In this document: positions 1-25,986 of the stretch, piece by piece
Layout of the letters: each line of letters begins with the position of its first letter
How positions within the stretch are numbered: the first letter of the stretch is position 1
Assembly: GCA_964016885.1 (NCBI GenBank)
Contig: CAXHJY010001624.1
Location: forward strand, 1-26,178
DNA length: 26,178 nucleotides
DNA from: Eledone cirrhosa
Taxonomy: Eukaryota
Direction of reading: 5' to 3'
The notes under the pieces: generated by a model
Database searches by the model: none
What the model was told of the DNA's origin: nothing
What the model saw: only the letters and a program-made list of their open reading frames with translations
Made by a program: the position numbers and the translations under genes

Positions 1-5373
<5,373 letters not shown>

Positions 5374-7620: not shown

Positions 7621-8326
7621 TCATGACAGTGTATACTTAAATGTGTGTATTTATTTTAAACATGTTCTTTGTTGCCTGCGTGAAGACTAATAAATATTTT
7701 GGGAAACATAATTCCCTAAAGAGTAGGCTAAATATATTAATCCCAATAAATAATTATACTTTAAATAGTCTATACCAGATGACTTTATCATCCTCTCTGG
7801 TTTCATGTTTTAATTTAGTAACTAATACTTAAATAAACTAAAAATTAAAGTAACAAACAAAACAAAACATTTTACTTTGTAAACTTTCTACTGCATGATA
7901 TAGTGAGCTGGAAGGAAAACATTCTTCTTGTCAAAAAACTAGAATGGAAAATGTATTTTCCATTTATAGCTAGTGGTTTTTCAAACACTTTTTTCTCTAC
8001 TTTCAATTACTTCTTTTATATACAAGTATTGTATTAATATTGCTAAAATAATGTTATTATTATTGATAGTATTCTAGTAATACACCAACATCACGATCAT
8101 TACGATTATTATTATTGATGTTTCTGAATTGGCAATAATCAGATTCATCAACGTTGTGTATGTAGACAGCTATACATACATAGATACATACATACATAAA
8201 CACACACACAAACATATATATATCTATATATATCTATATAGGGAGCACTCAACGAAGATATAAGTTCCGGAGTTATAATATTGACGAAACATAAGTCAAT
8301 TGCATAAAACTCATAATCCTTTATTT

Positions 8327-8382
8327 ACTGCTATATATATTTCGACGATAGCCATTGAATGGCTATGACCTCATCAGTCAGT
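8327..8382 (-). ncRNA. Hammerhead ribozyme copy with damaged stem I
   Basis: Mirror copy of 8483-8536. The core is intact (TCATCAG 8371-77 and TTTC 8340-43 on +), but the 8 nt CTATCTGC that supply the 5' strand of stem I are missing. Confidence 0.55.
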
Positions 8383-8482
8383 TCTTAGATATGCCAGCTC
8401 TGTGTGTATAGTGTTGATGGTATCAGGGCCTTGGAACATCAACACTATACACACAGAGCTGGCATATCTAAGAACTGACTAT

Positions 8483-8536
8483 CTGCCTGATGAGGTCATA
8501 GCCATTCAATGGCTATCATCGAAATATATATAGCAG
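8483..8536 (+). ncRNA. Minimal type I hammerhead ribozyme
   Basis: Stem I CTGC (8483-86)/GCAG (8533-36); core CTGATGA 8487-93; stem II GGTcATAGCCAT-tca-ATGGCTATcATC (11 of 12 pairs); GAAA 8521-24; palindromic stem III TATATA; predicted cleavage after AUA at 8532; AATAAA at 8539-44. Confidence 0.8.
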
Positions 8537-8759
8537 TAAATAAAGGATTAAGAGTTCATGCAATTGACATATGTTTCGTCTCTCTCTCTCTCTCTATATA
8601 TATATATTGTGTGTGTGTGTGTGTGTATCTGTAACTGTGTATGCATGAATGTATATGTGCATTACTCAAGATAAAAAGGTATATTTTAACTAGTGACTAT
8701 ATATATATATTTACATCAGCTTCATAAAATTCCTCTACATATTTCTCTACTCTTAACCA

Positions 8760-9640
8760 TATCTGCCATCTCATGATTGTATTGCTGACCATTTCCTTGC
8801 AATGAAGTCAAGCTATACGTTTGCGTCCCTCTCAATCGCTGCAGTATTTAAACTTCGCTTCAAATCCTCCCAGCAGAACCACGTGATATACTTCAAAGCT
8901 ATTGAGATTGTCATCTATTAATGTATCATATTAGAGGGCGGTGGATTGGCAGTATCGGTAGAGGGTCTGACGCCATGCTTTCCAATATAGTTACATCCCT
9001 TTACTGGGTAATTGCTGGCCTTGTGCTTAAATAGAAACAATTAATGTATCATATTAGTATCGGGCAATTCAGTGGGATCCTGTCCAATACTTGAGAGTTT
9101 TTCACTTTGTGAGTCCTGGGCAGCTCTAATATCCGGTGGTAGCCCTACATATCAAAAGATTCTACCTTTCCTATAATATCCCTAGTCACTTGCCATACAT
9201 CGAAAACATAATGGGATATCAACCTAACATAAGCTCTAAATAACCTAATCTTCGTAAAACTATTGACGTTATTCCTCTTTAGGTTAGTATTCTGCAAGGA
9301 TGCGTGATTCCGTATTGGAATTTCACCGATATCATGACCATCAACATAACTCTTAAATATCTAAATATCTGCACGCATTTCTTCCCATTTACTTCAATGA
9401 TCTGCTGCATCGTAGTGTCATCGTTTTTATCCATAATCATAAATTTCGATTTAGAGATATATGCTGTAATGTTAAATTCTTGCGCAATCCGTAATAGTTC
9501 TCCAAGTGTAGTTTTCCGAGCCATTTCATTATCGGCAGCTCTTGCGATATCGGCTCCATATATAATACGATTAATGGCCGTATCACCTCCACAGATAGCG
9601 TGATCACTTTCTAATGTACAAAACACCCATATATGCCTTC
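8760..9640 (-). mobile_element. Decayed non-LTR retrotransposon (RTE-like LINE), C-terminal reverse transcriptase region
   Basis: Minus ORF 9279-9626 has INRIIYGADIA (degenerate YADD), SKSKFMI and IEVNG..V..FRYL. After a frameshift my translation gives TKIRLFRAYV...VW...KVESFDM*GYHRIL...KVKNSQVLDR. Beyond the SINE it gives ISRGSAG and RLRGTQ, resembling RTE C-termini. The left boundary is approximate. Confidence 0.82.
8935..9039 (+). mobile_element. Internally deleted tRNA-derived SINE with perfect 18-bp target-site duplication
   Basis: A-box-like TGGCAGTATCGGT. Its 5' and 3' parts match the copy at 15033-15207. TSD ATTAATGTATCATATTAG at 8917-8934 and 9040-9057. Confidence 0.88.
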
Positions 9641-9940: not shown

Positions 9941-11836
9941 CACCTATATGTTAAAATCCTGCCAAGTTTTACTTAAATCGCATTAAAATGTATTTATCTG
10001 CTTGGGTATATTAGTTCATAACCACCCATTCAGAAGTCCTGAATATTATAGTTAATACTTCAAGTCGATGAGATAATATTTGTGACAATTTATAATGTTC
10101 TTTGTGAATTGATTTGATTTGCATAAATGACGATACAAATACTAAGTCTCTTCCATTATCACGTTGTTTTAGATCAGCCCTGAGTAATGTTACCTGATGT
10201 ATTTTAGTTCATATACATTCTGTATTTCCGTATTTACTGTTAGCGGAGTGACTTTTTCTTCTATTTTAAAATGCTGATTTGGGGGAATTTATGATCATCA
10301 TATTTCTAATTCCACAACTTCTCCGTGGGCATATCCTACAGGGTACGCAAATTCCATCCCTATATGGGCAATTCCTATAAATGTAAGTCTTGCTCTATAT
10401 GTTATTTCCCCTCTGATGTGTATCGAACACTCTTGTGCCTTTTGTTGTAGAGTTAATCACATCCACATTTTCTATTTGGTTACATCATCTAAAACTATAA
10501 ATGCGGCATATTCTTATCAAGTAGTTTTACCTGAATGTTGTCAATTCTGCATTGGCTTCTTTCTGAGCTTTTCCTTTTCATTGTGAACGATAAAATGTTT
10601 GTAAAACTAATAATAAAATAGGATAATATATACATAAACGCACATTCACACACACACAGTCTAACAAACAGTGAGTGGATGTGTGTCGGAGTATCTGTGC
10701 GCTTGTGAGTTTGCATGCCCTTCTCTGTATCTATATTTCTAATTCTCTTCTAATCTTCTCTGTGTAATTCAACACGGATTTGGGGGAAGATTACCGTGTA
10801 TGTTATTTGAAGAAATAGGAATAAACACACAGATATGTGTAACGTATGTAATCAAACGTTGGAGAAACTTGTTTCAGACATAATCAGAGTGATGCTAGAA
10901 AGCAACAAAGAGAAATGTTTGCTTACCATAATGGGAATTGATAATGTTAGATTGTATGTTCTGGACAATTTAGATAGTCTATGTTGTCTGAATTGTAAAT
11001 AAGTTTTAATAGAAGGTGCTGGAGCTTCTGACGTAATCGGCGACATTGATATGCTAGGAAACATAGAGATTTTGTTAGCTAGGATATTGTCGTGAGATAT
11101 CGTCCTATACAATTAACTATTGAAGAATTTATATTGAATGTGAGCGTCACATTAATTGAATAATGAATAAGAACTTGATATTGAATTGAATAGTGAAATA
11201 AAAATGCGATTATAGAGGGGAAACTTGATTAGATTAGACTGAGACAGTATTTAAATGATAATAAGTAGGGGAATGAAGAGATTGAGGAGATCGAGTTGAA
11301 AATTGGATATGTTAGATGGAGTACACAAAATATATTTCGTCGGTATATTTATAACGAAAACAAAAGTAGAAAGATAGTGTTGACTATTAAAGCTGAATTG
11401 GTATGTAATGATTGAGTAATATCACATGATAAATAAGTGTATGGATAGATCGAGAAAAGAGGAGGCGTATGGAAAATGAAGTGTACACTGAAACAAGAGT
11501 GGTATGGTGAAATAGTGAGGTTTGAACTTATGTGCATAGCATATGCAATATGAAATGCTTACAGTAAGTCATTACTATTTGGTGGCGGTAGAAATTGTCA
11601 TTGGTGTACATGTTGCATAGAATATTTGCTAAGGGATACATTTGATAACATTTGGTCGTTTGAACTGATTCTATTTCTAGTGGCAGGACATTGACCTGTC
11701 CGCCCAGCCTTTTGTGTTTACACACGGCACTAGGCAAAATTGTTTCTTTCCTCATTCACTCTCATTCGGGAACAGTTTTGTATGGCGCCAGTTTGTGATT
11801 TGAACTGGCAAATTTTATATTATCCGAGCGAGAAGA

Positions 11837-11920
11837 GCCTTCTGACGAGATTCCCCTTCTCAATGGAAATCCGCTCGGATTATCTGTTTATTTTGGGATT
11901 TGAAACCGCGTGGTAAGGGC
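11837..11920 (+). ncRNA. Type I hammerhead ribozyme with large loop II
   Basis: Stem I GCCTT (11837-41)/AGGGC (11916-20); CTGACGA 11842-48; stem II GATTCCC (11849-55)/GGGATTT (11895-901); GAAAC 11902-06; stem III ACC-gcgt-GGT; predicted GUA cleavage at 11915. Confidence 0.82.
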
Positions 11921-12569
11921 ACATATAGTAAGTACAGCGAACTTTTAAACATTTATTTAAAAACTTTTTCTCTATTTGTTAGATCTTGATTTTATATGTT
12001 CTGGCTTGTTAATTTATTAACCTGCCACAGAACCACATTGGCATACGGTTGGATAATACTTGTATCCCTATATGTATTTTTTACACGTAGGAACACATAT
12101 TATATATATATATATAAAAACACACAAATTAAAAAAATGTGAAAACAAAACAATGCATTAGAACAAAATTGAATCGCTGAGATGACAAAAGAATCTTATC
12201 TAAGCAAGTTTAATTATCCCAATTATTTTCTGGTTAAAAACCCATTGTCGAGGGAGTAACCCTATGAGAGACTTAAATAGTCGATCGGATAGACAAAGCA
12301 GAAGTAATTTAAATGAAATGAAAAGACGTTAAAATGTCGAATGTGCGCGTTGTGAAATGTATGATATATGCATGTGTGTGCGTGAATGTAAGTTTATATA
12401 GTGAAAGGTGTGTGTGAATCTGTATATAATAAAACGGGAAAAATATGTGTGCGATATATGTATGTGTGTGTTTACCTAGTGAGGACAGATTTAATTTGAA
12501 AGAAAGAATGAAACTGGTCGCGGGGATGTTGTAACACATGATTTTAAATTAGCCATTCTGGTGCACATC

Positions 12570-12767
12570 ATATAGTCTATCAAAGTTCTTTCATCACGCA
12601 CCTGTGACATCATCAGTAATATTATGTTTACTCCCATTGTATTGTAAAGTCTACGCCATTTTAATGTCATATTCTTTAAAATGAAGTAGACATTAACATA
12701 CAACGCGAGGAAACATAATAGTACCACTGATGATGTCACAGATGCGTTATGAAAACTTAGACTATAT
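12570..12767. repeat. Diverged ~200-bp palindrome (two ~95-bp arms, 11-nt loop) bearing outward-facing hammerhead motifs
   Basis: Arm correspondences: ATATAGTCTA/TAGACTATAT, CTGTGACATCATCAGT/ACTGATGATGTCACAG, TATTATGTTT/AAACATAATA, GTCTAC/GTAGAC and CATTTTAA/TTAAAATG around loop 12665-12675. Confidence 0.9.
12578..12621 (-). ncRNA. Minimal type I hammerhead ribozyme (extra U after CUGAUGA)
   Basis: Minus strand reads TATTA CTGATGA T GTCAC aggtgc GTGAT GAAA GAAC TT TGATA. Stems I and II pair, with G-U pairs. Stem III is very short and no longer palindromic. Confidence 0.6.
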
Positions 12768-13051: not shown

Positions 13052-13320
13052 GGTGTCCCAAACAAATTGACATCATTCTGCAGGCCAATAATTTTGGCAA
13101 TTCTTGTTGAAATAACCTCAAATGTTCACGGAATGTATAGAAACAGATCAAGATTTTAAATTTCATGTTTTATATTTTTGTCTTTTCAGATTGAGAAATG
13201 CCGTTCACTTCCAAAGAAAAGTCATTTTGCGTCTTGGAATATGCTCGAACACAGTCACCGAAGATCGTGCAGCGTGCCTTCAATGCAAGATTTGGGGAAA
13301 AAGTCACCAACTTGCAAACA
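13049..13320 (+). mobile_element. Tc1/mariner DNA transposon 5' fragment (terminal repeat plus start of DUF4817-type HTH transposase)
   Basis: Begins TA|CAGGGTGTCCCA at the end of a (TA)n run. An acceptor-like TTTTGTCTTTTCAG precedes ATG 13198. Peptide MPFTSKEKSFCVLEYARTQSPKIVQRAFNARFG is typical of mariner-like N-terminal HTH domains. Confidence 0.85.
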
Positions 13321-13625
13321 GTATCCTCAGGATACCCTCATTCGAGGAATCTGGGTTTCCAAACTTGTTCTCCTTACAGACTACTTGGGGCTTCGCAATG
13401 GTTTTTCATGAACTTGCTCGACTTGCTCTTCTGATGTTGATGATAAGCAGCTTTCCTCTTTAAATGTTTGGTACCAGGTCCAACTTTGTTTGCCGGTTGG
13501 TGACTTTTTTCCAAATGTTGCATTGAAGGCACCACGCTGCACAATCTTTGGTGACTGTGTTCGAGCATATTCCAAGACGCAAAATGACTTTTCTTTGGAA
13601 GTGGCTCCTTTGCGCTTGCGCATTT
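13321..13625 (-). pseudogene. Second, inverted Tc1/mariner transposase 5' fragment
   Basis: TSKEKSFCVLEYARTQSPKIVQR...WYQTFKEESCL...EEQVEQV...RSPK*SVRRTSLETQIP. This covers both HTH regions, with an in-frame stop and no DDD catalytic domain. Confidence 0.85.
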
Positions 13626-14908: not shown

Positions 14909-15032
14909 CTTGTTAATTTTTAATACGTTACCTCCGTAACTATGTGTGTTTACACTCTTTAAAAATTATCCCCAGTAATTGTATGATATGTTTATTTTAT
15001 ATATATAAACGTCATTCAACTTTTAATTTATT

Positions 15033-15207
15033 TGTTTCTACTTTTGGCACAAGGCCAGCAATTACCCAGTGTATTACTGGAACTTTATTTTATCGACCCC
15101 GTAAGGATGAAAGGCAGTTAACCTCTGCGGGATTTGAACTCAGAATGGCAAGGGCCTTAACTCAATGCGTCAAAGCATGGCGTCCGACCCTCTACCGATA
15201 CAGCCAA
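15033..15207 (-). mobile_element. tRNA-derived SINE (resembles octopus SINEs)
   Basis: Minus strand: A box TGGCTGTATCGGT, B box GAGTTCAAATCCC, conserved central motif GCCTTTCATCCTTACGGGGTCGATAAAATAA, and 3' end GCTGGCCTTGTGCCAAAAGTAGAAAC. Confidence 0.9.
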
Positions 15208-15316
15208 ATGTTAATACATGTTCAGATTTACTACTTTGAGCTTATTCCACAGTTGGTATGGTGTATGCGTCTGATATTGTCACACATGGCATCTTTAATC
15301 TAATTTCGGTAGTATA

Positions 15317-15365
<49 letters not shown>

Positions 15366-16287: not shown

Positions 16288-16342
<55 letters not shown>

Positions 16343-16508
16343 TATATTTATTAAAATAACAGATTAAAGTTTAAGCAAATAATCGCTGCTTTCACCCTTA
16401 ACGGGATCTTCTGAAACTAACAAAGTGAAACTGTGAACACAGATGTGAATATTTCAAAAACGTTGCAACCGGAGGAAGACAGGAAGACGATACTTTGGTT
16501 CGTGGAAA

Positions 16509-16772
16509 CGTTCCCTGGCAAAGAACGGAAAAAAGCGAATATAATACGTCATTATTTAGAGCGGTGAAAAACAATTACGCGCAAAGACAGAACCACGTTT
16601 ATGGTAAAAAAAAAAGCCGCAGACAAATGTTCTCTTAGGTGGTGCATAGAGGCGTTCTCTGGCAATGAACGGAAAAACGAAGATAATACGTCATATGTGG
16701 AGCGTTGAGAACAATTGCACGCAAAGACAAAACCACGTAAATGGTATAACTGAAGTCGTAGACTAAAATTCT
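16509..16772. repeat. Diverged tandem duplication, period 144 bp
   Basis: CGTTCCCTGGCAAAGAACGGAAAAA...ATAATACGTCAT...CGCAAAGACAGAACCACGT at 16509 recurs as CGTTCTCTGGCAATGAACGGAAAAA...ATAATACGTCAT...CGCAAAGACAAAACCACGT at 16653. Confidence 0.9.
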
Positions 16773-16892
16773 AAATAGGAAACCGAATGATTTGCTCTAC
16801 GGTTCCTATATATTTGATATATATTTATCCTTATCGAGCCCTCTTTGGATTTTAGTCTTCAAATTAATTATTATTACTATATATATATATAT

Positions 16893-17009
16893 ATAGGAAC
16901 GAGTAGGACCCCGACGGCTGAACTCACCCGTTTCGACGGCTAATTCAGAGTCCAGAATTAGCCGTCGAAACGGCTTGAGCTTAGCCGTCGGGGTCCTACT
17001 CGTTCCTAT
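16893..17009. repeat. GC-rich near-perfect palindrome (54/55-bp arms, 8-nt loop) made of a hammerhead 3' half
   Basis: 16893-16946 is the reverse complement of 16955-17009 apart from a small mismatched patch. The right arm contains GAAAC-GGCT-tgagctt-AGCC-GTC-GGGGTCC. Confidence 0.93.
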
Positions 17010-17700
17010 TACCCACGCTACTACCCTAAGAATTGAGTACTTTGGTGCGTTATGGTCCACCTGGTTCCTTACCAGATTTCCTTCGTTATATATATATATG
17101 TATATATATATATATGTGTGTGTTTGTGCGTGCGTGTCGGTGTATCATTATGTCTTTATTATGTAATTATGTTTTTAATTTATAATCCTCTCCATCGTGT
17201 CAATCCTATAAATATATCAGTGTTTCATCAATGATCTCTTTGAAACTTTCTTTTTAGTCAATAATTCGCAACCTGATCTTCAATAATCTAGATTTCGCTT
17301 CTAAAACAGCGTCAGATGTTGTAATAATAGTATGTCAGGAACTATATGTACTTAGATATATTGAACTAGCGTAGGTCATATAAACCTTTGTCTTGCTATG
17401 TGTCGAGAAACAATTAAACATCCATAGAAATATTGTCATATTCGTGTCACTTTCTATTTCCATTGCAGCGTAATCCTATATCTCGATTTGAGTAGCTATA
17501 AACATTCATTGTCATGAAAGGTAAAACAAGAGTTCCATTAGAAATGTTTCGTGCACCGACTAAAATATATACGGATTCATTGATTTCACATATCTAACTT
17601 GCATCCCTTTTAAATTTCCTTTATTATTTAGTTTAAATGTTACACTATCCGTGAAACAGTTGATATATCTGTATGCGTAGTCATGTATCTATACGTATAT

Positions 17701-18027
17701 GTAGTGAAAGCGCATGACTTCCTTGTTTAGGGAACGCGGCTCACGACCGCAAGGTTGTGAGTTCGATTCCCAACTGTGCGTTGTGTCCTTGATCATGATA
17801 CTTTATTTCACGTTGTTCCAGTTCACTCAGCAGGCAAAAATGAGTTGTAGCTGTATTTCGAAGGATCAGCCTTGTCCCATTCTTCGTCACACCGAATCTC
17901 CCTGAGTACTACGTCAAGGGTACACGTGTTTGGGGAATGCTCAGTCACTTGCACGTACATTTCACAGGCAGCCTGTTCCATTGATTGGATCAACTGGAAC
18001 ACTCGTCTTTGTAACCGACAAAGTGCC
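17701..18027 (+). mobile_element. Near full-length tRNA-derived CORE-type SINE
   Basis: tRNA-like head with B box GAGTTCGATTCCC (17759-71), CORE-like TGTGTCCTTGATCATGATACTTTATTTCAC, and 3' tail ending ACTGGAACACTCGTCTTTGTAACCGACAAAGTGCC. Confidence 0.85.
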
Positions 18028-18387
18028 TTCCATTTCCAAATGTTTTAATATAAATGTAATATTTTTTATATATAAACCAAAAGTAAATTGTTTTCGTGTT
18101 TTGTATTTACTATTCCTAACATAATAATCGTGCAACTAATTTCGTATTTGTTATATTCTTACGTTTTATTGATTTAGGACATCTAAATATCAAAATTAAA
18201 TGTGGCTTTGTGGCGCTAAATCATAGCTCACTTTGGGGAGAAGTTTTGCAAGAAGATTATAAATTACGTATTGAAGCACAATTACATTTCCCCATACCTA
18301 ACATACCTCTGTTGATAAAGCTTAAATGTCACACTCGTCTATGAGGTTGTCAATTATAAGATGTGTAGAGTAACGTTATTGATAAAT

Positions 18388-19772: not shown

Positions 19773-19813
<41 letters not shown>

Positions 19814-20307
19814 TAAATATATGTATGATATATATATACATATATATGAAAAATATATATATATATATAATATATATAAATATATGTATGATATATATAC
19901 ACATATATATGATATATATATATATATATATATACATATATATAATATATATATACATATATATAATGTATATATATATATATACATATATATAATGTAT
20001 ATATATATATACATATATATAATATATATATATATATATATACATATATATAATATATATATATATATATACATATATATAATATATATACATATACATA
20101 TATATAATATATATACATATACATATATATAATATATATACATATATATAATATATATACATATACATATATATAATATATATACATATACATATATATA
20201 ATATATATATACATATACATATATATAATATATATATACATATACATATATATAATATATATATATATATACATATATATAATATATATATATATACATA
20301 TATATAA

Positions 20308-20386
<79 letters not shown>

Positions 20387-20645
20387 TATATATAATATAT
20401 ATATATATAATATATATATATATAATATATATATATAATATATATATATAATATATATATATAATATATATATATAATATATATATATAATATATATATA
20501 TAATATATATATATAATATATATATATAATATATATATATAATATATATATATAATATATATATATAATATATATATATAATATATATATATAATATATA
20601 TATATAATATATATATAATATATATATATAATATATATATATAAT

Positions 20646-20679
<34 letters not shown>

Positions 20680-20749
20680 ATATATATATATAATATATAT
20701 ATATATATAATATATATATATATATAATATATATATATATATAATATAT

Positions 20750-20804
<55 letters not shown>

Positions 20805-20950
20805 ATATATATATATATATATAATATATATATATAATATATATAATATATATATATAATATATATATATAATATATATATATATATAATATATATATAT
20901 AATATATATATATATATAATATATATATATAATATATATATATATATAAT

Positions 20951-20993
<43 letters not shown>

Positions 20994-21057
20994 TATATAA
21001 TATATATATATAATATATATATATAATATATATATATAATATATATATATATATATA

Positions 21058-21096
<39 letters not shown>

Positions 21097-21168
21097 TATA
21101 TAGATATACAGATAGATAGATATAGATATATATATATATATATAGAGAGAGATAGAAATAGATAGATA
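19773..21168. repeat. Interrupted (TA)n array: CATATATATAATAT-type minisatellite part, then AA-interrupted part, ending in GATA/GA repeats
   Basis: Units of roughly 20-36 nt at ~19930-20330; AA interruptions often every 11-13 nt at 20380-21090. Confidence 0.97.
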
Positions 21169-21279
21169 TGTTTCTTTTATTTGCCACTAGGGCATCACAA
21201 GTGGGACAAGTACAAAGGGGGGAGTTTACACAAAAAGGCGTCCTCAATAAGGAGGAGGCAATAACAACATATTAAAATA

Positions 21280-25986
<4,707 letters not shown>

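What the first reader, a model, noticed from the sequence alone, without database searches (positions are those of the whole stretch)
11822..11920. Hammerhead with 9-bp leader-to-loop-II complementarity: pseudoknot or on/off switch
ATCCGAGCG (11822-30), just 5' of stem I, is the exact complement of CGCTCGGAT (11872-80) inside the 39-nt loop II. GAGAAG (11830-35) also complements CTTCTC (11856-61). This is either a stem I/loop II pseudoknot, a tertiary contact known to stabilise some natural hammerheads, or a competing hairpin that encloses CUGACGA and blocks folding. All core nucleotides are canonical, so this is the best candidate for an active ribozyme. A small hairpin GCCAGTT/AACTGGC (11787-11809) lies upstream.
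Basis: partly seen in the sequence, partly recalled or inferred. Interest (0 to 1): 0.75.

Follow-up and report, generated by a model that had tools for sequence, protein, structure and literature searches.

The report
Pseudoknotted hammerhead ribozyme in animal retrozymes
This is a worn, solitary copy of a small protein-free repeat carrying a hammerhead self-cutting-RNA motif; the flagged 9-base match occurs in this one copy only, but a shorter 5-6-base pairing beside it recurs, with matched changes on both sides, in several unrelated repeat families of this animal genome and likely braces the ribozyme in its cutting shape (cutting untested).

Summary
All complementarities are present as stated, in a type I hammerhead inside a ~484-nt protein-free repeat with Penelope-type insertions. 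The headline 9-bp pairing is not conserved. It occurs once in the 3.0-Gb genome, is complete in 0 of 122 other copies, shows no covariation, and arose from two private substitutions. The upstream hairpin is also private. This copy is decayed and solo, so it is a poor activity candidate. The leader GAGAAG pairs with CUUCUC in an internal loop of a long stem II: 95% of cells paired in 122 copies, with a G-C/A-U swap. The same leader/loop helix occurs in sequence-unrelated families sampled without constraining it (23 of 29, 12 of 29; controls about 1-2), one with 10,837 copies. Genome-wide, U in the loop goes with A in the leader 2,986 times versus 400 with G. Most likely it is an activating stem I/II pseudoknot in a dimer-dependent hammerhead. 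The scan noted retrozymes in this genome before, but not this pseudoknot.

The parts
11644..12105 (+). One solo, slightly incomplete unit (462 of ~484 nt) of a protein-free hammerhead repeat (family A), ending in (TA)n
   Evidence: no ORF of 100 aa or more over it
11787..11809 (+). Hairpin private to this copy; made by changes at 11807 and 11809 (with 11810 also changed)
   Evidence: 1 match in genome; complete in 0 of 59 other copies
11805..11828 (+). Family upstream hairpin (9 bp) that holds most of the flagged leader; broken in this copy
   Evidence: 93.5% of cells paired in 122 copies; p>0.5 in 49 of 56 folded copies, 0.00 here; no two-sided change
11822..11830 (+). 5' arm of the flagged 9-bp match (copy-private; partner 11872-11880)
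11830..11835 (+). Pseudoknot 5' strand (purine leader, one nt before stem I)
11837..11841 (+). Stem I 5' strand (pairs with 11916-11920)
   Evidence: G-C 67 / A-U 40 at outer pair
11842..11848 (+). Core CUGANGA
11849..11855 (+). Stem II proximal 5' strand (pairs with 11895-11901); first pair often non-canonical in family; U-U at 11851 here
   Evidence: 6 of 7 pairs change on both sides
11856..11861 (+). Pseudoknot 3' strand = 5' side of stem II internal loop
11862..11888 (+). Apical helix of stem II with 4-nt loop 11873-76 (contains the 9-nt target)
   Evidence: 91.6% of cells paired
11889..11894 (+). U-rich opposite strand of the internal loop (unpaired; more variable)
   Evidence: 4 of 6 columns vary between subfamilies
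11902..11915 (+). GAAA, stem III/loop III (perfect palindrome in family, broken here by C11911T) and predicted GUA cleavage site after 11915
   Evidence: palindrome in 94 of 122 copies; duplex -19.9 versus -16.1 kcal/mol here, hairpin -0.9
11916..11920 (+). Stem I 3' strand
11928..11933 (+). 5'-splice-site-like GTAAGT 12 nt after the cleavage site, shared by families A, B, C
   Evidence: donor-like motif within 28 nt in 73 of 85, 64 of 66, 18 of 30; control window 0; function untested

Best explanation
The locus is a decayed solo copy of a ~484-nt protein-free repeat with Penelope-type insertion ends and a type I hammerhead motif; the flagged 9-bp match is private to this copy, while the neighbouring 5-6-bp leader/stem II-internal-loop pairing is conserved and covaries across families and likely acts as a pseudoknot that holds stems I and II parallel so that the ribozyme would cleave, probably as a dimer. 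Steps: (shown) repeat family, tandem and inverted insertions in (TA)n, covarying stems I and II, palindromic stem III, conserved leader/loop complementarity; (inferred from known hammerhead biology) tandem transcripts fold two cores by pairing their palindromic stems III and cut after GUH to release unit-length RNA; (inferred) the upstream hairpin delimits the leader and keeps it from invading the apical helix; (inferred) a Penelope-like RT-endonuclease copies the RNA into (TA)n. In this copy the upstream hairpin is lost, the leader is predicted to invade stem II, and there is no second hammerhead in cis, so it is predicted to be inactive.
For: 9-bp helix: 1 genome match; 0 of 122 complete; covariation score reached by 104 of 500 shuffles; 8-bp G-U version in only ~77 family loci (84 rows, less 2 double counts and 5 rows of an unrelated repeat) against at least 950 leader-plus-loop matches. 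6-bp helix: 95.3% of cells paired, complete in 92 of 122, G-C 71 / A-U 36 at 11835-11856; 0 of 500 shuffles; 2 of its 12 columns vary between subfamilies and they are that one pair, against 13 of 14 in stem II and 40 of 112 in flanks; it uses no nucleotide of stems I-III. Other families: loop-strand pattern 4,222 hits versus 10 control. Resampled with neither strand constrained, a strict 5-bp leader/loop helix is found in A 42 of 47, B 23 of 29, C 12 of 29, control windows mean 0.3, 1.3, 2.4. Middle pair G-C 57, A-U 7, mismatched 4 of 68 anchored copies; partner-swap control 1 of 2000. Genome counts 2,986 A-U versus 400 G-U, with A-U forms in lineages A, B, C and D. Hammerhead regions of A, B, C, D share only background local-alignment scores (14-27 versus 81-98 within a lineage). 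Tandem units of 464-496 nt; 14 of 104 loci tandem, 10 with inverted arms; fixed 3' ends at (TA)n. Precedent: pseudoknots between stems I and II raise rates 20- to >100-fold (PMC3088659 section 7); a 5-bp helix I / 6-bp helix II pseudoknot geometry is described for type III (PMC7936874).
Against: No cleavage or expression data. Within family A the swap at 11835-11856 is probably one or two events, and the independent-pairs test is not significant. The sixth pair is unpaired or mismatched in 10 of 23 anchored B copies. A diverged A subfamily has an A-G mismatch inside the helix in both full copies seen. The loose helix-length control with G-U allowed was noisy (36 of 47 in an upstream window of A). 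Pseudoknot-free folding puts the same helix as a plain hairpin replacing stem II in 23 of 56 copies, and the monomer hammerhead lies a median 7.1 kcal/mol above the minimum, which also fits an off-state. Template switching between these inverted repeats does occur (L141) and could create two-sided changes without selection. Families B and C were first noticed through a pattern holding the loop strand, and D through one holding both strands. No autonomous parent element sharing the hammerhead was found. Another hammerhead family in this window (8487) lacks the motif.
Confidence: 0.66

Rival explanations
1. The conserved leader/loop helix is an inhibitory or timing hairpin: it forms first during transcription, encloses the core and delays or blocks hammerhead folding (for example in the monomer or circle) until a second unit or a protein refolds it.
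For: It closes before the 3' halves of stems I and II are made. It replaces stem II in 23 of 56 predicted folds and appears in several circular-unit folds. PLE hammerheads are reported to be slow in vitro (PMC4209133).
Against: It sequesters no core or stem nucleotide and is compatible with all three stems. Its spacing to the core is held in a narrow range in unrelated families. Short palindromic stem III already provides a monomer brake. The folding model cannot score pseudoknots.
Confidence: 0.17
2. The purine leader and pyrimidine loop strand are a structural or protein-recognition module (for example for the Penelope RT or for splicing) that has little effect on cleavage rate.
For: The primary sequence is kept across unrelated families more than pairing alone requires. 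A donor-like motif sits at a fixed distance.
Against: Two-sided changes show that pairing, not only sequence, is kept. The position is where hammerhead tertiary contacts are known to form.
Confidence: 0.1
3. One reading: the 9-bp leader/loop II pairing is a functional pseudoknot or on/off switch.
For: The match is exact and dominates the predicted fold of this copy (p 0.90). An 8-bp version with one G-U is possible in about 77 loci. This copy has two separately perfected inverted repeats, and one 9-bp copy is somewhat more than a rough product of the two allele frequencies predicts (about 0.1 expected; my estimate).
Against: Unique in the genome, no covariation, broken in most subfamilies, both arms belong to other conserved hairpins. 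The helix is favoured in only 2 of 56 other copies. The copy shows ordinary divergence (end branch 0.052, the median). Inverted-repeat perfecting by template switching is seen in this family.
Confidence: 0.04
4. The 5-6-bp complementarity is inherited sequence plus template-switch conversion, with no RNA function.
For: Counts are of related copies. Fold-back events between these arms exist (L141; L125).
Against: Chance of a 6-bp match at this spot is about 0.002. It recurs in four lineages without sequence similarity, and the middle pair switched to A-U in each.
Confidence: 0.03

Closest known systems
Minimal type I hammerheads of Penelope-like elements (Cervera and de la Pena 2014, PMC4209133; parts 1-2 of 4 read)
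   Same: Helix I of 5 bp, helix II of about 7 bp, palindromic stem/loop III implying dimer cleavage, many solo and opposite-strand copies.
   Different: [quoted passage not shown]
Metazoan non-LTR retrozymes (PMC7229834, parts 2-3 of 6 read; bioRxiv 10.64898/2026.07.22.740005, part 1 of 5 and passages)
   Same: Protein-free, AT-rich unit with a type I hammerhead, found as monomers and tandems; PLE-like mobilisation.
   Different: Units of 464-496 nt (B 471-571) are longer than the 150-450 bp quoted; mostly solo or short tandems; tertiary contact is a Watson-Crick helix, not the canonical loop 1/loop 2 contacts; circular RNA not shown here.
Pseudoknotted hammerheads of Perreault et al. 2011 (PMC3088659; section 7 and passages), including human C10orf118, and the type III HHRs of toad and termite HDV-like RNAs (PMC7936874; passages)
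   Same: A Watson-Crick helix links the stem I region to loop II; short helix I with longer helix II.
   Different: Here the partner is an internal loop of an extended stem II and the 5' leader of an open stem I, combined with a dimer-type stem III in high-copy repeats. I saw no figure, so exact topologies in those papers were not compared.
PK hammerhead (Zhan et al. 2024, PMC11300833; part 1 of 6 read)
   Same: 6-bp pseudoknot and an extra stem-loop 5' of helix I.
   Different: There the pseudoknot replaces helix II; here helix II is intact and covaries.
Type-SGC rearranged hammerheads (PMC10085705; passages)
   Same: A helix is proposed to join stems I and II.
   Different: Strand order here is the ordinary type I order.

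Membership tests
Type I hammerhead ribozyme | Core CUGANGA, GAAA, UH in type I order | tested here: met
   intact in 103 of 122 other copies
Type I hammerhead ribozyme | Stems I-III with compensatory changes | tested here: met
   (0 of 500 shuffles for covariation score); this copy has a U-U in stem II
Type I hammerhead ribozyme | G10.1-C11.1 pair (highly conserved, exceptions published) | tested here: not met
   G-U here; family G-U 41, U-U 33, A-U 28, A-G 8, G-C 7 of 122; U-U exceptions noted in PMC3088659 and PMC7229834
Type I hammerhead ribozyme | Match to an Rfam hammerhead model | tested here: not met
   none in window or 5 family A loci; one weak HH9 hit, E 0.044, among 5 B/C loci, at a place other than the motif studied
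Type I hammerhead ribozyme | Site-specific self-cleavage | not testable with these tools
   no assay; no RNA run listed
PLE minimal hammerhead | Helix I 4-5 bp, helix II 7-8 bp | tested here: met
   5 and 7 bp
PLE minimal hammerhead | Palindromic stem/loop III | tested here: met
   94 of 122 copies; broken in the window copy
PLE minimal hammerhead | Location in the pseudo-LTR of an RT-GIY-YIG element | tested here: inconclusive
   one tandem is fused to a 5'-truncated RT plus GIY-YIG frame whose own 3' end lacks this hammerhead
Non-LTR retrozyme | Short protein-free unit with type I hammerhead, in tandems | tested here: met
   family: 14 of 104 loci tandem, unit 464-496 nt; window copy is solo
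Non-LTR retrozyme | Expressed as linear and circular unit-length RNA | not testable with these tools
   no RNA holder listed
Pseudoknotted hammerhead (Perreault 2011) | Watson-Crick helix of 4 or more bp between stem I extension and loop II, with covariation | tested here: met
   (for the 6-bp helix; not met for the 9-bp helix)
Pseudoknotted hammerhead (Perreault 2011) | Pseudoknot raises cleavage rate at low Mg2+ | not testable with these tools
   needs kinetics
PK hammerhead (Weinberg 2015 / Zhan 2024) | Helix II replaced by the pseudoknot | tested here: not met
   stem II present, 6 of 7 pairs with two-sided change
Type-SGC hammerhead | Non-circularly permuted strand order | tested here: not met
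   ordinary order

The most novel reading that the evidence does not exclude
An undescribed extended hammerhead subtype, missed by Rfam and present in over ten thousand copies in one animal genome: upstream hairpin, purine leader that pseudoknots (perhaps as a triple helix with the U-rich strand) into an internal loop of a long stem II, dimer-only palindromic stem III, and a 5' splice site 11-15 nt after the cut. If so, some 'minimal, slow' Penelope-associated hammerheads are fast ribozymes once their leader and partner are included, and cleavage may be coupled to splicing.
Probability: 0.35. Interest if true: 0.7.

Novelty: new variant of a known kind. Interest (0 to 1): 0.5.

Why it matters
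PLE-associated hammerheads are reported to lack clear tertiary contacts and to cleave slowly in vitro, and their role is called unclear (PMC4209133, PMC8557442). A conserved, covarying leader/stem II helix in several large families gives a specific, cheap test of whether a missing tertiary contact explains that, and a search profile for a class that Rfam misses. The case also shows that a perfect complement in one repeat copy can be decay, while the shorter helix beside it is the selected one.

Tried and rejected
Rfam: no hammerhead model hit the window or family A. Expression: no RNA holder listed; this is no evidence either way. Three coded runs of one sample, held as contigs, confirm both flanks of the locus and very high depth over the repeat, but no piece spans the ribozyme, so the private substitutions could not be checked independently. 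A covariance model was built but not used for any count. Autonomous partner: 41 of 102 frames and 41 of 91 frames from flanks were scanned with Pfam; RT plus GIY-YIG in one frame only at L014, and its 3' end has no such hammerhead. RNAalifold proposed an upstream pairing to CUG and to stem III; 1 cell with a two-sided change, so not pursued. The loose helix-length control was replaced by a strict Watson-Crick one; both are reported. Five rows are an unrelated repeat (no match to the window). Lunse et al. 2016 on PLE hammerhead variants could not be read, so a prior description there is not excluded. No supplements or figures were read; they may show similar motifs. Literature searches that found no description of this motif in listings or passages. 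Rows dropped: 11 partial hits; 20 of 77 copies with indels before folding; L099, L125, L138, L139 and duplicates left out of family A counts; sets for searches are the 122 copies fetched, not a random sample.

Full report
Observation. The three complementarities are at the stated coordinates. The motif is an ordinary-order type I hammerhead: stem I 11837-41/11916-20, CUGACGA 11842-48, stem II from 11849 to 11901, GAAA 11902-05, stem III 11905-14, predicted cut after GUA at 11915. No Rfam hammerhead model matches it. 'Loop II' is a 7-bp stem, a 6x6 internal loop and a 10-bp apical helix.

Context. The window is a whole 26-kb contig of a 3.0-Gb genome, with (AT)n arrays at both ends. The ribozyme lies in a repeat spanning 11644 to about 12105. 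Distances between tandem hammerheads are 464-496 nt. Copies end at two fixed places, 11997 and about 12105-12116, each followed by (TA)n (counts there include duplicate loci). Of 104 distinct loci, 78 hold one hammerhead, 12 a tandem, 8 inverted arms, 2 both and 4 none by the filter. Partial tandems, inverted truncated arms and microsatellite targeting are described for Penelope-like elements (PMC8557442, passages). At least 950 copies keep leader, core and loop strand. One tandem is fused to a 5'-truncated RT plus GIY-YIG frame, but that element's own 3' end lacks this hammerhead, so the mobilising partner is inferred, not shown.

The 9-bp match is private. The pattern occurs once in the genome, as does the upstream hairpin variant. 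Among 122 other copies from all subfamilies fetched, the nine pairs are complete in 0. The first pair holds in 2 of 121, A11827 in 74 of 120 and C11829 in 80 of 120. The covariation score is reached by 104 of 500 shuffles. An 8-bp form with one G-U is possible in about 77 loci and a perfect 8-bp form in 2. In the family the leader is the 3' arm of an upstream hairpin (93.5% of cells paired) and the target is part of the apical helix. This copy has lost the upstream hairpin through three substitutions, so the leader is predicted to invade stem II (p 0.90; above 0.5 in only 2 of 56 other copies). It has also lost the stem III palindrome, has a U-U in stem II and has no tandem partner; 48 of 122 other copies keep core, stems I and II and palindrome. 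Its divergence is typical. Template-switch fold-backs occur in the family (L141) and could explain perfected inverted repeats; that is inference.

The 6-bp helix is conserved. GAGAAG 11830-35 with CUUCUC 11856-61 is paired in 95.3% of cells and complete in 92 of 122 copies, with G-C 71 and A-U 36 at the core-proximal pair; 0 of 500 shuffles reach it. Between subfamilies only that pair varies among its 12 columns, against 13 of 14 stem II columns, 4 of 6 in the opposite loop strand and 40 of 112 flank columns. On the tree this swap is one or two events and not significant alone.

Independent families. A pattern holding core, loop strand and GAAAC but not the leader gave 4,222 hits against 10 for the control, and the fetched copies of other families carried the purine leader. 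I then resampled with neither strand constrained: family B, 10,837 copies, and family C, 153 hits including noise. A strict 5-bp leader/loop helix was present in A 42 of 47, B 23 of 29 and C 12 of 29; ten shifted control windows averaged 0.3, 1.3 and 2.4. At the middle pair, 57 were G-C, 7 A-U and 4 mismatched of 68 anchored copies; swapping partners lowered helix length (1 of 2000 shuffles as high). Genome-wide, the U-bearing loop goes with the A leader 2,986 times (control 26) and with the G leader 400 times (control 9; still a G-U pair), although the G leader dominates the unconstrained B sample (19 of 23). A-U forms occur in lineages A, B, C and a fourth family D. The four lineages share only background alignment scores yet share the layout: long stem II with internal loop, palindromic stem III, an upstream hairpin (seen by eye in B and D), and in A, B, C a donor-like motif after the cut (73 of 85, 64 of 66, 18 of 30; control 0). 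Against: the sixth pair is often unpaired in B, a diverged A subfamily has an internal A-G mismatch, the G-U-tolerant control was noisy, D was found with both strands constrained, and the A-C and G-C genome counts were not obtained.

Mechanism. Shown: sequence, family structure, covariation. From established knowledge: short palindromic stem III makes such hammerheads work as dimers in tandems (PMC4209133; PMC7229834); here the duplex is -19.9 against -0.9 kcal/mol for the hairpin. Stem I/II pseudoknots speed cleavage and constrain stem lengths (PMC3088659). Inferred: the leader/loop helix is that contact, since it uses no stem or core nucleotide and keeps its spacing. The main rival is a co-transcriptional off-hairpin made by the same helix, which pseudoknot-free folding favours in 23 of 56 copies; only kinetics separate the two. 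Nothing here shows transcription or cleavage.

Comparison and novelty. It works like the pseudoknotted hammerheads of Perreault et al. and sits in a retrozyme/PLE-type repeat. It is not the PK hammerhead of Zhan et al. (helix II intact) or a type-SGC form. Ten literature searches showed no description of this combination in what I read, which was listings, passages and the parts named under Closest known systems; further passages were read in PMC6765202, PMC12192606 and PMC13725137. Lunse et al. 2016, figures and supplements were not seen. Earlier notes of this scan describe retrozymes with Penelope-type ends and rearranged hammerheads on other DNA of this genome, and none matched this sequence or this pseudoknot. 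The labels 'family A-D' are mine.

Verdict. Observation confirmed; headline interpretation refuted; secondary pairing upgraded to a conserved, probably activating pseudoknot of a large hammerhead subtype. New variant of a known kind; interest 0.5.

Noticed in passing
window 8283-8580: 307-nt inverted repeat (88.6%) with two type I hammerheads (cores at 8377 minus, 8487 plus), palindromic AT-only stem III, no leader/loop pseudoknot motif; relatives in L133.
   Followed up: partly
window 12570-12767: 208-nt inverted repeat (78%) with CUGAUGA at 12616 minus and 12727 plus; on the plus strand GAAA and UA come before the core, as in the rearranged hammerheads of earlier notes.
   Followed up: no
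window 15569 minus, 15580 plus, 16089 plus: Further CUGANGA motifs, two of them back to back; not resolved into hammerheads.
   Followed up: no
window 11928-11933; families A, B, C: 5'-splice-site-like GTRAGT/GTAAAT 11-15 nt after the cleavage site; similar motif by eye in family D. PLEs are known to keep a 5'-UTR intron.
   Followed up: partly
L133:7180 (L014): A 1.7-unit tandem is joined without (TA)n to a 5'-truncated RT plus GIY-YIG frame; related frames lie beside L039, L041 and L096. Possible template switch by the mobilising RT.
   Followed up: partly
L141:890-950; L125: Fold-back copies in which the leader region is recopied in inverted orientation over part of the ribozyme or its flank, rejoining at the purine/pyrimidine inverted repeat.
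   Followed up: partly
L153:221-499, L211:2544-2790, L244: Diverged family A lineages (72-75% identity) with different stem III palindromes and A-rich leaders; two have an A-G mismatch in the helix.
   Followed up: partly
L138, L139: Unrelated repeat, with a hAT dimerisation domain frame in L138, that matches the 8-bp pattern by chance.
   Followed up: partly
window 11785-11790: A GGCGCC palindrome upstream is well conserved in family A and predicted by RNAalifold to pair with the stem III palindrome; no covariation.
   Followed up: no
window 16893-17009; 13206-13603; 8916-9054, 14932-15334, 16291-17128: Other inverted repeats and high-copy repeats shared with fetched loci; a SINE-like stretch near 17700-18030 by eye, no tRNA called.
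   Followed up: no
window 1-5373 and 19773-25986: Kilobase-long (AT)n arrays flank the contig.
   Followed up: no
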